In this document: piece by piece, positions 21,001 to 24,000 of the stretch
How the letters are laid out: each line of letters starts with the position of its first letter
Numbering within the stretch: the stretch's first letter is position 1
Virus record (IMG/VR): IMGVR_UViG_2563366900_000004
DNA length: 39,499 bases
Reading direction: 5' to 3' (one strand)
Source of the DNA: a virus
Lineage: Duplodnaviria; Heunggongvirae; Uroviricota; Caudoviricetes
Program-made: the position numbers

Positions 21001-24000
21001 CACCAACACCATCACCATCCCACAGGTAATGGTCAGCGCCGTCTTCAATCGCCAGCGAAGTAGCCCAGTCAGCACCCTCGTTGATGTCCATCAGCAGACC
21101 TTCGGCAATGCGCTTAACTACCGAACCGTGACGCGATGCATAACCTTTAGCATCTGGCCCTGTATCTGATGGGTCATGCGCAGAGACAACAGCGCCTTTC
21201 GCTTTCCATCCGAGTTTCTTGTGCGCATCGGTTGCGGCTTCAAGCCATTCACGTTTGATGATTGCCATATCACTTGCGCTTACTGGCTCACCAAGCCAGA
21301 TATGACGATACAGTGTCGGATTTCTGCGTTTACACTCTTCCATCTCCAGACGGAGAACTTCAGGAAAGTGCGGGTTGTCGGTGTAGTTCACCGTCAGCAG
21401 ACAAATATCATCGGGAGGATTTACAACGAATCGCTGATAGGTATCGTCGAGGATGTTCTTCGGGTTAAAGCTCACCCATATTTCAGAGAACGGCTTACGG
21501 ATGGTTGGGATCAGGATATCCCACGATTCCTTTGTTACCGCTTCCGCTTCTTCCACCCAGCAGATATCAATGCCTTCGAGCGATTTAATCTTCGTCGGGT
21601 TGTTTTTGATGCCGTAGAACATGAATTCAGCATTCGTTCCGAGATGACGAATCATGGAACGCTGAATTTCAAACTCAGCCGAATACCCTTCACGCTCGAT
21701 AGTGTCTTCAAGCAACCGGATTACCGAATCGCTGATACTGTTTTGCAGTTCACGAGCGCAGAGTATGCGCACAGGCTGCCGACGCGCCGCTTCAACAAGC
21801 AGTCTCGCAATTGCCCATGACTTACCGCTACCTCGACCGCCTTTGGCGACTTTGTAGCGATGCGCCTCAATGAACGGTTCAAAGATAGGATTAATCGAGG
21901 TCATTTTCCGAATAGAGTGCTCATCGGTGATGTTTCAATCTGGATTGCGCCGCCGTCTTTGCCGACAAGCTCGTTAGTTACCTTGTCGCCATACTTACGG
22001 GGATTCATTCGGGCCAGCGCCCATTTGCGGGTATCAACGCGAAGTCTTGCCTTTGCCACCTCAGCAGCATCTGGAATCGCATTGTCAGCAATTTCGAATA
22101 TCTCTTCGAAAATAGAATCAGCTCGTGCCTCAGTTGCCTTCGCGTACTTGTCGCGAAAATCCTCATGCTTTGCCAGCCAGCGGAAAACAGTGGACTTATC
22201 CGGCATACCAGGACGCTTACATACTTTCAGCAAACTTTCGCCAGAAGAAAGCAACGAGCAGATATCGTCAGCCACCTCCGGCATATAATCAGAGGGGCGA
22301 CCAGCTTTTGGTTCAGTCGCCATATTTATCTCACTTAGTTGTTATTTCAGGTCGTTGGCTCTTCATGCTTTCAATCAATGACTGCTTCAGCAATTCGAGT
22401 GTGCCAATAGCCTCACATACACTGATTTCACCATAATCATGGATGACGCTTTCCAGCCTCTCGTATAGCTCTTGAGTAATTGGGAATTTCTTCTCCTTAC
22501 CCAAATTGATTACGCGGCTCACATCATGCTCCGGTAGTGAACAGGTCTAACGCTTCCTTCGATTTACGCACCGCTTCGATAGTGCGGGTCGTGATATCTG
22601 AATTAGCGCCGCCTGACTGGAAGTGAATTTTGAATGGCTCAAGCTTCAACTCGTCAGTGCCAATGAACTGAAATGCTTCTTCTGCGGCTGCGTTCTGGTT
22701 CATGACCAGTTTATAAATCTCTAACTGGAATTTCTGTTCTTCAGTCATGGGAATAATCTCTGCCATTGTTGGCTCCGTTTATCCGTTAAAAGGGATATCA
22801 GTTAAGTTATCCCGTGTAGGGTATAAGCCATTGTCGAGACCACTCATTGAATGGTCTCTGCAATAACCGATGTCTTTCCATCAGTCCGCCACCACAAAGA
22901 ATCTTTTTTGCCATAAGGCAGGAGGTTCATCTTTCAGTGGCTGCCGGTGTTATTTCCCCACTTACTGGCTTGGGTTGCTTCGTGGTACTGCCGTAACTGG
23001 TTGCCAAGAATAAATTCCGGTTTCATTATCAAGCCCACCCGTAGATGGGCTTTGTAATGGATAGCCGTTGCTCAGTTCTCGTAATGCTTTGATTTTTCCG
23101 ATAACGCAGTTTTGCGTTTGCCATCAGCACGCGATATCGAGAGTCAACTGCAGTTGCTCGCGCCAGTACTCAACATTTGCTTCAATAACCGGCTTATCCC
23201 ATCGCCAGCGAGCCATCTCTCTTGCCCCATTGCTGGCTTTTGATTTCCGGTCATCGCGAATGCGACATGCTTGCTCATATTTCTGCTGCTCAGTCAGTTC
23301 ACCGCGAAGCAGACTATCAATGTGCAGGTCGCACCACACAGCAAAACGAGCATCACACCAACGGGCAAATGCAACTGAAAGTTTTGGATGTAGCCACGTA
23401 CCACCACCCCTGTCCTTTCGTGCCTTGCTGGTTTTTACATACCTCGATTGTGAGGGATGTAAAATTTGAGATTCTTTCCCGGTCAACGCTTCGTCTAAAG
23501 CACGAACGTATTCAAGCGTTTCTGCCAAACGCATCCAGTTATCAATGCGTTTCCCAAATCTCTCAGCAACACCTGTGACGTTGATCCAACCATCAGTGTT
23601 GAAACTGACAATTTCACCTTTGTAATTAAGTGGCACGATATTCATAACGTTTACCTACCATTTGAAATGAACCTTTGCCGCATAGGAAACCAGCCCACCG
23701 AGGCTCGCCAGCACTAACTGGCATCCTCAAAGGCCCATTCCAAAGGGGCAGGTTCGGTGTAAAAAACATGCGTTGCGGTACGCATTTATTGCAAAAAGCC
23801 CCGCATCGCGAGGCTCATTAAATTGACTTTGTGATTTGCAAAAAAATTATTTCAGGCATTGCGTCCTGATGTATTCCTGCAGGTAGTTAACCTGCGCGGT
23901 TATCTTGTCGATTCCACTTCGGAGACGGTAATAATTGAGTTCAGCATCTGCTGTAAGTCTTGGGCTTTCTCCATCGCCCATGCCGCTGGCTCCGGTCTTT

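What the first reader, a model, noticed from the sequence alone, without database searches (positions are those of the whole stretch)
22331..23123. Two coupled small genes plus about 350 bp of structured non-coding DNA immediately upstream of terminase
Between the KilA-N gene and the small terminase subunit lie an 80 aa and a 63 aa ORF, the second with a GTG start one base after the first's stop. Upstream is an untranslated stretch containing perfect hairpins (GAGACCA-N9-TGGTCTC at about 22837-22859; AAGCCCA-N8-TGGGCTT at about 23031-23053). This is a common insertion point for accessory or toxin-antitoxin-like pairs, but I cannot assign function.
Basis: seen in the sequence. Interest (0 to 1): 0.4.

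Follow-up and report, generated by a model that had tools for sequence, protein, structure and literature searches.

The report
Conserved RNA hairpins before phage terminase
The two small genes are already-known P22-type late genes of unknown function and not a toxin-antitoxin pair, while the 357-base gap upstream holds unannotated, strongly conserved RNA stem-loops shared by hundreds of lambda-like phages.

Summary
The window is a P22-like phage with late genes on the minus strand. Between the KilA-N gene and the Sf6-type small terminase lie an 80-aa ORF (DUF2560, matching P22 orf80 and HK620 hkbM) and a 63-aa ORF (matching P22 orf59c and HK620 hkbN). Upstream is 357 nt of non-coding DNA with two perfect 7-bp hairpins.

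The toxin-antitoxin reading is not supported. orf63 follows orf80 in only 26 of 88 distinct contexts, and neither protein hits any toxin-antitoxin, defence, PDB or fold library.

The spacer is the interesting part. The two hairpins are diverged copies of one ~45-nt bipartite stem-loop. In related phages it usually sits right after the stop codons of accessory genes. Its stems covary: 96% of unconstrained cells pair, with 55 G·U cells against 0 A·C. That fits a structure in the late mRNA strand.

The hairpins bracket a 128-nt core with sharp mosaic boundaries. Its diversity is 4-10 times lower than at neighbouring synonymous sites. Part of the core resembles the Rfam Proteo-phage-1 motif but scores 20 bits against a 42-bit threshold.

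The most likely role is cis-acting structure in the late mRNA (processing or stability) that also serves as cassette-exchange joints. That function is inferred, not shown.

The parts
23124..23645 (-). KilA-N domain gene (173 aa). Context only: it is the upstream neighbour of the spacer.
   Evidence: Pfam KilA-N 8.2e-22 and phrog_129. In 124 of 176 related loci the gene just upstream of the core is of Rha, KilA-N or hkbL type.
23103..23118 (-). Small stem-loop AACGCA-AAAC-UGCGUU just after the KilA-N stop codon.
   Evidence: Seen in the sequence and in the minimum-free-energy fold. Shared only with phages that carry the same KilA-N allele. No covariation test was made.
23018..23064 (-). H element copy 1, a bipartite hairpin: CAUUA-CA-AAGCCCAUC-uacg-GGUGGGCUU-GA-UAAUG.
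   Evidence: Covariance model R1 scores 61.1 bits, E 5e-13. Covariation is shown.
22869..22996 (-). Near-invariant 128-nt core, UUACGGCAGUACC...GGAAAGACAUC, with exact mosaic boundaries on both sides.
   Evidence: Alignments of 107-117 distinct copies show at least 4 different left contexts and at least 5 different right contexts. Nucleotide diversity is about 0.00-0.05 per 15-nt block, against 0.086-0.138 at 4-fold sites of orf80.
22939..22975 (-). Proteo-phage-1-like segment inside the core: a short hairpin CCCA-AGCCAGUAAG-UGGG followed by the tail GAAAUAACACCGGCAGCC.
   Evidence: Rfam RF03044 scores 20 bits against a gathering score of 42, E 1.6. Canonical members score 52-87 bits. nhmmer with a canonical profile places its best window hit here, E 7e-5 to 1e-3, but that test is partly circular.
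22807..22914 (-). 35-aa ORF homologous to P22 'orf25'. Probably not a gene.
   Evidence: Only the first 15 codons lie in the constant core. The C-terminus and the stop codon differ with context: 25 aa in P22, 35 aa here. Some copies lose the ATG (TTAAGG) or are frameshifted in the A-run.
22823..22870 (-). H element copy 2: UAUUG-CA-GAGACCAUU-caa-UGAGUGGUCUC-GA-CAAUG.
   Evidence: Model R1 scores 66.8 bits, E 2e-14. Allelic forms are GAGGCCA/TGGTCTC, GAGGCCA/TGGCCTC and AAAGCCA/TGGCTTT.
22788..22826 (-). Two mutually exclusive hairpins upstream of orf80. Hairpin A is UUAUACCC-uacac-GGGAUAA at 22807-22826. Hairpin B is GGGAUA-N10-UAUCCC at 22792-22813, followed by UUUU at 22788-22791.
   Evidence: Read from the sequence. 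Hairpin B appears in the minimum-free-energy fold. Hairpin-A-like UUAUCC...GGAUAA stems follow H elements in other contexts. Diversity here is low. The alternative pairing is an inference.
22524..22766 (-). orf80, a DUF2560 protein matching P22 Orf80, HK620 HkbM and Sf6 gp67. Its ribosome-binding site GGAG is at 22773-22776.
   Evidence: Pfam PF10834 scores 143 bits, 2.9e-42, and phrog_571 gives 4.8e-40. Codon-position diversity (0.006 / 0.002 / 0.068) shows purifying selection on the protein.
22331..22522 (-). orf63, matching P22 Orf59c, HK620 HkbN and Sf6 gp68. GTG start one base after the orf80 stop codon.
   Evidence: phrog_3546 gives 1.7e-38. All 61 homologues are from Enterobacterales (E. 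coli, Salmonella, Hafnia, Pantoea, Citrobacter) or unnamed metagenome assemblies, and every one that carries a name is 'hypothetical'. The AlphaFold2 model is beta-hairpin plus two helices at pLDDT 75, with no fold match.
21901..22323 (-). Sf6-type small terminase subunit. Context only: the downstream neighbour.
   Evidence: Pfam PF20901 gives 7.5e-45 and phrog_1482 gives 2e-66.

Best explanation
The region is an interior segment of the Q-antiterminated late operon of a P22-like phage.

The two small ORFs are the known, conserved late-operon accessory genes orf80 (DUF2560) and orf59c/hkbN. Their function is unknown. They are independent cassettes that happen to be adjacent and translationally close. 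They are not a toxin-antitoxin pair.

The 357-nt spacer is not junk. It is transcribed as part of the late mRNA and folds into conserved stem-loops. Two copies of a ~45-nt bipartite hairpin (the H element) bracket a near-invariant 128-nt core. The H element has an outer 5-bp helix, a CA/GA internal loop and an inner 9-bp helix. In this phage group it usually sits directly 3' of the stop codons of accessory genes. The 5' half of the core resembles the second hairpin and single-stranded tail of the Proteo-phage-1 motif.

Shown: the anatomy, the conservation, the compensatory base changes and the strand-specific G·U pairing.

Inferred: the H elements act in cis on the late transcript as intercistronic structure. 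They may work as processing sites, 3'-end-protecting hairpins or protein-binding sites that set the stability or expression of each cassette. Their conserved flanks also serve as the joints where cassettes are exchanged by homologous recombination. The core would be a cis-acting or processed RNA of the Proteo-phage-1 kind, whose biochemical role is still unknown.
For: Late-operon context:
- Q, holin, lysozyme, Rz/Rz1, KilA-N, spacer and terminase all lie on one strand.
- Two terminator-like hairpins follow Rz, and no sigma-70-like promoter is predicted on that strand in 22200-23900.
- Phage BTP1 carries a partial match to the spacer and transcribes its lytic genes as one polycistronic operon (PMC7067206).

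Spread of the spacer:
- It is 90-98% identical, in mosaic sub-blocks, in 209 phage records, including HK97, HK022, P22, Sf6 and Stx phages.
- At least part of it is in 2325 of 5426 complete E. coli genomes. All listed hits that overlap an annotated gene overlap a neighbouring gene or an inserted cargo gene.

H element:
- There are exactly two strong hits in the window and 164 in 100 related loci, each locus holding one or two.
- 98% of cells pair, and 7 of 14 pairs show double changes.
- In a set anchored only on the flanks, 96.3% of unconstrained inner cells pair, against 84% when shuffled and 34-59% when slid. There are 55 G·U cells and 0 A·C.
- The element lies 1-4 nt after stop codons of many different genes.
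- One Stx phage has a single hybrid copy and no core.

Core:
- Its boundaries are exact.
- Its diversity is 4-10 times lower than at 4-fold sites of the adjacent orf80, while its first ~15 nt vary at a neutral-like rate.
- The sense-strand fold has z = -5.9.

Proteo-phage-1 likeness is covered.
Against: No transcript, cleavage or binding data were available, so the functional step is entirely inferred.

The H hairpins are short (14 bp with an internal loop) for a classical RNase III site, and they lack a U-tract, so they are not intrinsic terminators.

Low diversity of the core could reflect homogenisation by frequent recombination or a recent sweep rather than selection on an RNA. The core shows no internal covariation; its 7 common polymorphisms assort freely.

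The first H alignment was picked with a pairing filter, which biases. One search was made to remove that bias. The first diversity estimate was anchored on a 22-mer inside the core. The orf80-anchored repeat gives a smaller contrast, about 4-fold.

The Proteo-phage-1 match is below the Rfam threshold. It lacks hairpin 1. It rests partly on a C at 22946 that only 8 of 107 distinct copies share.
Confidence: 0.45

Rival explanations
1. The conserved blocks act only at the DNA level. They would be recombination linkers ('boundary sequences' in the sense of Clark et al. 2001 for HK620, recalled from memory). These are short conserved intergenic sequences where homologous recombination shuffles modules. 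On this view the hairpins have no RNA role.
For: Every mosaic junction in this locus falls at an edge of the core or inside an H element. A hybrid H1/H2 copy with the core deleted exists. One recombinant has an H2b left arm joined to an H2a right arm. The polymorphisms in the core assort freely.
Against: A linker needs sequence identity, not complementarity. Yet the stems differ between classes and stay complementary: AAGCCCA, GAGACCA, AAAGCCA and AAGCGTC, each with its matching partner. The 55 G·U against 0 A·C asymmetry points to one strand read as RNA. This explanation may well hold alongside the main one.
Confidence: 0.2
2. The core is a discrete functional RNA of the Proteo-phage-1 family. 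It could be a processed small RNA, a ribozyme or a regulatory RNA that is released from the late transcript, perhaps by cleavage at the flanking H elements. It would then act in trans on host or phage targets.
For: The loop and the 18-nt tail match the Rfam motif on the transcribed strand. Loop and tail are complementary in both families: GCCGGU/ACCGGC in canonical members and GCCAGU/ACUGGC in 99 of 107 distinct copies of this family. Both families lie in late operons downstream of tandem terminators. The core has sharp boundaries and is flanked by hairpins.
Against: The score is 20 bits against a 42-bit gathering score. Hairpin 1 is absent. The window's own copy has an A·C mismatch in the proposed loop-tail pairing. 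Canonical members sit in a different place, between the NinG or Q-like gene and the holin. No promoter or terminator is visible. There is no covariation inside the core.
Confidence: 0.15
3. The part of the spacer next to orf80 is a leader-type attenuator. A 9-codon mini-ORF starts at the AUG held in the foot of H2. Hairpin A and hairpin B plus U4 exclude each other. Together they would tune read-through or translation into orf80, orf63 and terminase.
For: Hairpins A and B share the GGGAUAA segment, and B is followed by UUUU just upstream of the orf80 ribosome-binding site. The segment has low diversity. The AUG at the foot of the H element is conserved as GA(U/C)AAUG.
Against: RNA polymerase modified by Q should ignore such a weak terminator. 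mEp234 has AUA in place of the AUG. The mini-ORF takes non-synonymous changes. Hairpin B has only 6 AU-rich base pairs.
Confidence: 0.08
4. The spacer encodes small proteins. Candidates are the P22 orf25 homologue (35 aa, 22807-22914, minus strand), a 30-34-aa ORF starting at the foot of H1 (22934-23038, minus strand), or an antisense 47-aa ORF that exactly spans the core (22870-23013, plus strand).
For: The ORFs exist. orf25 is annotated in P22. The antisense ORF starts exactly at the right edge of the core and is also open in L148. The common T/A polymorphism is synonymous in the antisense frame; I read this from the sequence.
Against: All three ORFs run out of the constant core into variable flanks, so their ends differ between phages. 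A 1-nt indel (TTACGG or TTAACGG) changes the frame of the H1-foot ORF between common alleles. Five of 107 distinct copies have an extra A and 3 lose the orf25 ATG. There is no convincing ribosome-binding site. Most substitutions are non-synonymous in every frame. PGAP annotates nothing here in the listed E. coli hits.
Confidence: 0.07
5. orf80 and orf63 form a toxin-antitoxin-like or anti-defence accessory pair.
For: They are two small adjacent genes with a 1-nt gap, which suggests translational coupling. The locus is an accessory-gene hot spot.
Against: orf63 follows orf80 in only 26 of 88 distinct contexts, so the two do not travel together. Neither protein matches a toxin-antitoxin or defence family or any solved structure. 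By inspection of the sequences, both proteins are acidic.
Confidence: 0.03

Closest known systems
P22 late-region genes orf80 and orf59c (HK620 hkbM and hkbN; Sf6 genes 67 and 68)
   Same: The same families, order, one-base spacing and position just upstream of the small terminase gene.
   Different: Nothing substantive. This window has the Sf6/HK620-type terminase and a 63-aa rather than 59-aa second ORF. The function of both proteins is unknown in all of these phages.
Rfam RF03044, the Proteo-phage-1 RNA motif (Weinberg et al. 2017; function unknown)
   Same: It occurs in lambda-like phages of Proteobacteria, on the late-transcript strand and downstream of tandem terminators. The loop AAGCC(G/A)GUA(A)GUG and the tail AA(A/U)AACAC(C/U)GGCAGCC are shared. 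Loop and tail are complementary in both families.
   Different: The score is 20 bits against a threshold of 42. Hairpin 1 is missing and hairpin 2 is reduced to 4 bp. Canonical copies lie between the NinG or Q-like gene and the holin in Pseudomonas-type phages and carry a further covarying hairpin. Here the element lies after the lysis genes and a KilA-N gene.
Intercistronic RNase III processing hairpins of phage T7 mRNAs (from general knowledge)
   Same: Bipartite stems with an internal loop sit between cistrons of a long phage transcript. Such stems can leave a protective 3' hairpin on the upstream message.
   Different: The H element has no sequence relation to the T7 sites. It is shorter (5 + 9 bp). 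No cleavage has been shown. This is an analogy of mechanism only.
Morons and the P22 pid locus at the same junction (Juhala et al. 2000, recalled from memory; Cenens 2013; Wolput 2022, PMC8835761)
   Same: The insertion point is the same. In P22 the pid moron sits between the core with its H2 copy and orf80.
   Different: This window has no pid and no cargo gene. The conserved blocks here lack a promoter and a canonical terminator, so they are not themselves a moron.
'Boundary sequences' at lambdoid mosaic joints (Clark et al. 2001 for HK620, annotated as bsq in Sf6; recalled from memory)
   Same: Short conserved intergenic sequences that coincide with mosaic junctions.
   Different: No bsq feature is annotated at this place in the stretches of Sf6 or HK620 that were fetched. 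The elements here also keep a covarying secondary structure.

Membership tests
DUF2560 (Pfam PF10834), for orf80 | Whole-protein score above the Pfam gathering cut-off. | tested here: met
   143.2 bits against a cut-off of 25, covering profile positions 1-72 of 72.
PHROG 3546 (P22 Orf59c / HK620 HkbN), for orf63 | Full-length profile match. | tested here: met
   E 1.7e-38, covering profile positions 1-58 of 59. The same position is annotated in P22, HK620 and Sf6.
Rfam RF03044 Proteo-phage-1 | Covariance-model score at or above the gathering score of 42 bits. | tested here: not met
   20.0 bits, E 1.6. Canonical loci score 52-87 bits.
Rfam RF03044 Proteo-phage-1 | Hairpin 1 (an outer 5-bp helix and an inner 3-bp helix) directly 5' of hairpin 2. 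| tested here: not met
   cmscan marks the aligned positions as non-canonical pairs. This segment is the variable left edge of the core.
Rfam RF03044 Proteo-phage-1 | Hairpin 2 with the conserved loop AUAAGCCGGUAGUG, followed by the single-stranded tail AAaAACaCCGGCAGCC. | tested here: inconclusive
   The tail matches at 17 of 18 positions. The loop reads AAGCCAGUAAGUG and the stem has only 4 bp. nhmmer gives E 7e-5 to 1e-3, but the profile was built from sequences fetched with a pattern that the window also matches.
Type II toxin-antitoxin pair | The two genes co-occur as a unit. | tested here: not met
   orf63 follows orf80 in 26 of 88 distinct downstream contexts. HK97 and mEp234 keep only a fragment of orf80.
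Type II toxin-antitoxin pair | A recognisable toxin or antitoxin domain or fold. | tested here: not met
   Pfam, NCBIfam, PADLOC, PDB sequence search and Foldseek against PDB gave nothing. The orf80 model was too poor to search (pLDDT 51).
Intrinsic (Rho-independent) terminator, for the two hairpins | A G+C-rich stem directly followed by a U-tract on the transcribed strand. | tested here: not met
   The tails read GAUAAUG and GACAAUG. The scan lists neither hairpin on either strand.
Moron (an autonomous accessory cassette) | Its own promoter and terminator flanking the cargo. | tested here: not met
   No sigma-70-like site is predicted on the minus strand in 22200-23900. This is a consensus scan only, so weak promoters are not excluded.
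Conserved structured RNA element (generic criteria), for the H element | Compensatory base changes that keep the helices, above control levels. | tested here: met
   7 of 14 pairs show double changes, with no shuffle out of 500 reaching the observed values. In the test not biased by a pairing filter, 96% of cells pair against 84% when shuffled, with 55 G·U and 0 A·C.
Conserved structured RNA element (generic criteria), for the 128-nt core | Compensatory base changes that keep the helices. | tested here: inconclusive
   There are too few variable sites, and the common polymorphisms show no pairing pattern. Only low diversity supports a constraint.

The most novel reading that the evidence does not exclude
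The H hairpins and the core together form a previously undescribed cassette system of lambda-like late operons. Accessory genes would travel as units ending in a structure-conserved hairpin that a dedicated factor recognises on one strand, as RNA or as single-stranded DNA, loosely like integron attC sites. The 128-nt core would be a functional RNA of the Proteo-phage-1 class, needed for expression or processing of the packaging-gene part of the late transcript.
Probability: 0.1. Interest if true: 0.75.

Novelty: new variant of a known kind. Interest (0 to 1): 0.45.

Why it matters
P22, HK97, HK022, Sf6 and the Stx phages are among the best-studied phages. Yet this conserved block between the lysis and packaging genes carries no RNA or regulatory annotation in the records examined, and the Rfam scan found no family above threshold.

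If the hairpins are processing, stability or protein-binding sites, they would explain how accessory cassettes can be dropped into the late operon without disturbing terminase expression. They would also explain why mosaic joints cluster here.

The resemblance to Proteo-phage-1 gives that orphan motif a genetically tractable relative in P22 and HK97, where deletions and compensatory mutants are easy to make.

For annotation, the result says three things. The P22 'orf25'-type calls here are probably spurious. orf80 and orf59c should not be labelled a toxin-antitoxin pair. The spacer should be treated as a functional non-coding element.

Tried and rejected
- tRNA or tmRNA remnant: ARAGORN finds none in the window.
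- Known Rfam family: nothing reaches threshold. The isrJ-like hit at 23795-23862 is just the terminator hairpin after Rz. Rfam on nine homologous loci gave only noise.
- pid moron: P22 carries pid between this block and orf80, transcribed antisense. It is absent here, because the window passes directly from H2 to orf80.
- Anti-sRNA genes of Stx phages (AgvB, AsxR) and the 'Pas' sRNAs: these lie at the moron site 3' of PR', or are not described at this locus.
- BTP1 transcriptome paper: it confirms a polycistronic late operon but gives no detail for this spot in the text held.
- Weinberg 2017: the main text does not discuss Proteo-phage-1 and no supplement is held.
- H element as a genome-wide repeat: only two copies are in the window. 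The weak hit at 38755-38809 has no stem.
- Divergent homologues of the core for covariation: the single genome-contig scan used too loose a pattern. It returned mostly chance matches, and only five real copies, all at least 93% identical.
- Structure of orf80: the single-sequence model was unusable, pLDDT 51. The orf63 model (pLDDT 75) has no fold neighbour.
- RNAalifold on the extended canonical Proteo-phage-1 alignment gave only a partial structure, so no extended covariance model was built.
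Full report
**1. What is at the coordinates**

The window is a P22-like phage whose late genes run on the minus strand. In order they are:
- Q-type antiterminator, 25498-26121
- holin, 24741-25064
- lysozyme, 24281-24757
- Rz, 23847-24284, with an embedded Rz1
- a KilA-N gene, 23124-23645
- a 357-nt gap, 22767-23123
- an 80-aa ORF, 22524-22766
- a 63-aa ORF, 22331-22522
- Sf6-type small terminase, 21901-22323
- large terminase, then portal

The GTG start of the 63-aa ORF lies one base after the TGA of the 80-aa ORF. The two perfect 7-bp hairpins exist, one base off the stated coordinates. 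By count alone they are only mildly unusual, with P about 0.03 against dinucleotide shuffles. The sense RNA of the gap folds much better than shuffled versions (z = -5.9). The antisense strand gives z = -3.2.

**2. The two ORFs**

orf80 is a full-length DUF2560 protein (143 bits) and a member of phrog_571. orf63 is a member of phrog_3546. They are the homologues of P22 orf80 and orf59c, HK620 hkbM and hkbN, and Sf6 genes 67 and 68. Those pairs are annotated in the same order, with the same one-base spacing, upstream of gene 3.

Codon-position diversity in orf80 is 0.006 / 0.002 / 0.068, which shows it is a real, constrained protein. The 61 orf63 homologues come from Enterobacterales or unnamed metagenome assemblies, and every named one is 'hypothetical'.

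Neither protein hits NCBIfam, PADLOC or PDB sequences. The AlphaFold2 model of orf63 (beta-hairpin plus two helices, pLDDT 75) has no Foldseek neighbour in the PDB. The single-sequence model of orf80 was unusable.

The two genes are not an obligate pair. Among 88 distinct sequences downstream of intact orf80 genes, only 26 encode orf63. HK97 and mEp234 retain just the first ~28 codons of orf80, fused to other sequence. The toxin-antitoxin reading is therefore rejected.

**3. The spacer is widely shared and mosaic**

The spacer matches 209 phage records at 90-98% identity, but in different sub-blocks. These include P22-like podoviruses and also HK97, HK022, mEp234 and Stx phages. At least part of it is in 2325 of 5426 complete E. 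coli genomes. All listed hits that overlap an annotated gene overlap a neighbouring gene or an inserted cargo gene.

Alignment shows a modular anatomy. Reading along the late transcript:
- (a) about 60 nt, including a small hairpin
- (b) hairpin element H1
- (c) about 20 nt
- (d) a 128-nt core, 22869-22996
- (e) hairpin element H2
- (f) about 55 nt, with two mutually exclusive hairpins and the orf80 ribosome-binding site

The core's right edge (...GGAAAGACAUC) is exact. It is followed by at least five different continuations: either H2, or cargo genes such as Sf6 gp66-family, orf53 and others. Its left edge has at least four different upstream contexts. In P22 the antisense pid moron sits between H2 and orf80. 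It is absent here.

**4. The two hairpins are one element, and it is an RNA-type structure**

H1, H2 and further classes share their flanks (CAUYA-CA ... GA-YAAUG) but have different, mutually complementary stems. These are AAGCCCA/UGGGCUU, GAGACCA/UGGUCUC, GAGGCCA/UGGCCUC, AAAGCCA/UGGCUUU and AAGCGUC/GGCGCUU.

On a 25-sequence alignment, 98% of cells pair. Seven of 14 pairs show double changes, and all controls are far lower. That set had been chosen with a pairing filter, so I repeated the test. The second set was retrieved by a pattern that fixes only the flanks and the four outer base pairs. The results for the second set were as follows:
- Across 38 distinct elements, the five unconstrained inner positions pair in 96.3% of cells.
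- The shuffled control gives 84% (maximum 92.6% over 1000 shuffles) and the slid control gives 34-59%.
- Each position shows three to four standard pair types.
- There are 55 G·U cells and no A·C cells.

That asymmetry means the helix is readable only on the late-transcript strand.

A covariance model finds exactly two copies in the window, at 67 and 61 bits. It finds one or two per related locus.

The element typically begins 1-4 nt after the stop codon of the preceding gene. It occurs behind many different accessory genes, including a moron between Q and the holin in one prophage. One Stx phage has a single hybrid H1/H2 copy and no core. The hairpins have no U-tract and are not terminators.

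**5. The core**

Across 107 distinct copies, only about seven positions are commonly polymorphic, and they assort freely.

In a sample anchored on orf80, which is unbiased with respect to the core, 15-nt blocks of the core have diversity between 0.00 and 0.05. The exception is the first block, at 0.09. The 4-fold sites of the adjacent orf80 give 0.086. A core-anchored sample gives 0.002-0.03 against 0.138. This argues for constraint, although homogenisation by recombination is an alternative.

Small ORFs overlap the core: the P22 orf25 homologue, an ORF starting at the foot of H1, and an antisense 47-aa ORF. All of them run into the variable flanks. They are frameshifted between common alleles or by A-run indels. 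Some copies lose the orf25 ATG. I regard them as non-coding.

In 124 of 176 loci the gene upstream of the core is of Rha, KilA-N or hkbL type.

**6. Relation to Proteo-phage-1**

Rfam's best match in the region is RF03044 at 22939-23010 on the minus strand: 20 bits against a gathering score of 42, E 1.6.

Canonical members fetched from IMG/VR score 52-87 bits. They lie in Pseudomonas-type lambda-like phages between the NinG or Q-like gene and the holin. They sit after a promoter-like site and two terminators, sometimes with tRNA genes nearby. They also carry a further covarying hairpin that the Rfam model does not include.

The shared part is the loop of hairpin 2 and the 18-nt tail. Loop and tail are complementary in both families: GCCGGU/ACCGGC in canonical members, and GCCAGU/ACUGGC in 99 of 107 copies here. 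The window's own copy has an A·C mismatch at this pairing.

An nhmmer profile of canonical sequences puts its best window hit exactly here, at E 7e-5 to 1e-3. That profile came from a pattern the window also satisfies, so the value is inflated. I treat homology as plausible but unproven, and membership as not established.

**7. Mechanism**

Shown: the anatomy, the spread, the constraint, and the strand-specific covarying helices.

Context: there is no promoter-like site on the sense strand. Two terminator-like hairpins follow Rz. Phage BTP1, which matches part of the spacer, transcribes its lytic genes as one polycistronic operon.

Inferred: the spacer acts in cis within the Q-antiterminated late mRNA. 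The H elements would be intercistronic structures, working as processing, stability or protein-binding sites attached to each accessory cassette. Their conserved flanks would double as recombination joints. The core would be a Proteo-phage-1-like RNA of unknown biochemical role. I put about 0.45 on this composite.

The main rivals are:
- a purely DNA-level linker
- a released trans-acting RNA
- a leader-type attenuator
- small peptides
- a toxin-antitoxin pair

**8. Verdict**

The genes are already known and ordinary. The toxin-antitoxin idea is not supported. The non-coding block is a real, conserved and apparently unannotated structured element. I rate it a new variant of known kinds (intercistronic phage RNA structure, and the Proteo-phage-1 class), of moderate interest.

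Noticed in passing
window 23768-23862 (minus strand): Two tandem terminator-like hairpins lie directly after Rz: GAGCCUCGCGAUGCGGGGCUUUUU and AUGCGUACCGCAACGCAUGUUUUUU. The first gives a weak isrJ-like Rfam hit. Transcripts not modified by Q would therefore stop before KilA-N and the spacer. Emek and HK544 annotate a terminator at this place.
   Followed up: partly
L042 5300-6100 (minus strand); also L019, L041, L241, L242: Canonical Proteo-phage-1 copies sit in the late leader after a promoter-like site and two terminators. They are followed by an extra covarying hairpin (CGCGCACCCUGA...UCAGGGUGGCGCG) that the Rfam model does not include. tRNA or tRNA-like genes often follow, before the holin.
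   Followed up: partly
L003 (HK97) about 1800-1895 and L005 (mEp234): HK97-type siphoviruses carry the core, H2 and the first ~28 codons of orf80, then switch to unrelated sequence upstream of the HNH endonuclease gene. This is an old recombination joint inside orf80 (compare phrog_23132).
   Followed up: partly
L018 about 10360-10560: One prophage has an IS3-family insertion sequence inserted in the A-run of the core (...GGCAAAAA|TGAACCGCCCCGGG...ATGACTAAAAATACTCG...).
   Followed up: no
L148 4736-5611: A divergent H element (AAGCGUC/GGCGCUU) follows an 89-aa ORF located between Q and the holin. It is followed by another hairpin and an HNH/NUMOD-like 172-aa gene. The H element is therefore not confined to the lysis-terminase junction.
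   Followed up: partly
window 23186-23199 (minus strand, inside the KilA-N gene): GGAUAAGCCGGUUA matches the canonical Proteo-phage-1 hairpin-2 loop consensus almost exactly. The nhmmer E-value is 4.3, so it is probably chance.
   Followed up: no
window 23124-23645: The KilA-N protein gives a weak PADLOC hit to the candidate defence family PDC-S22 (E 1.2e-5, 22.6 bits).
   Followed up: no
loci (for example L456, L445), downstream of H elements: Many H elements are followed at once by a second conserved hairpin, UUAUCC(C)...(G)GGAUAA. The window has it at 22807-22826. The pair may form one composite 3' element.
   Followed up: partly
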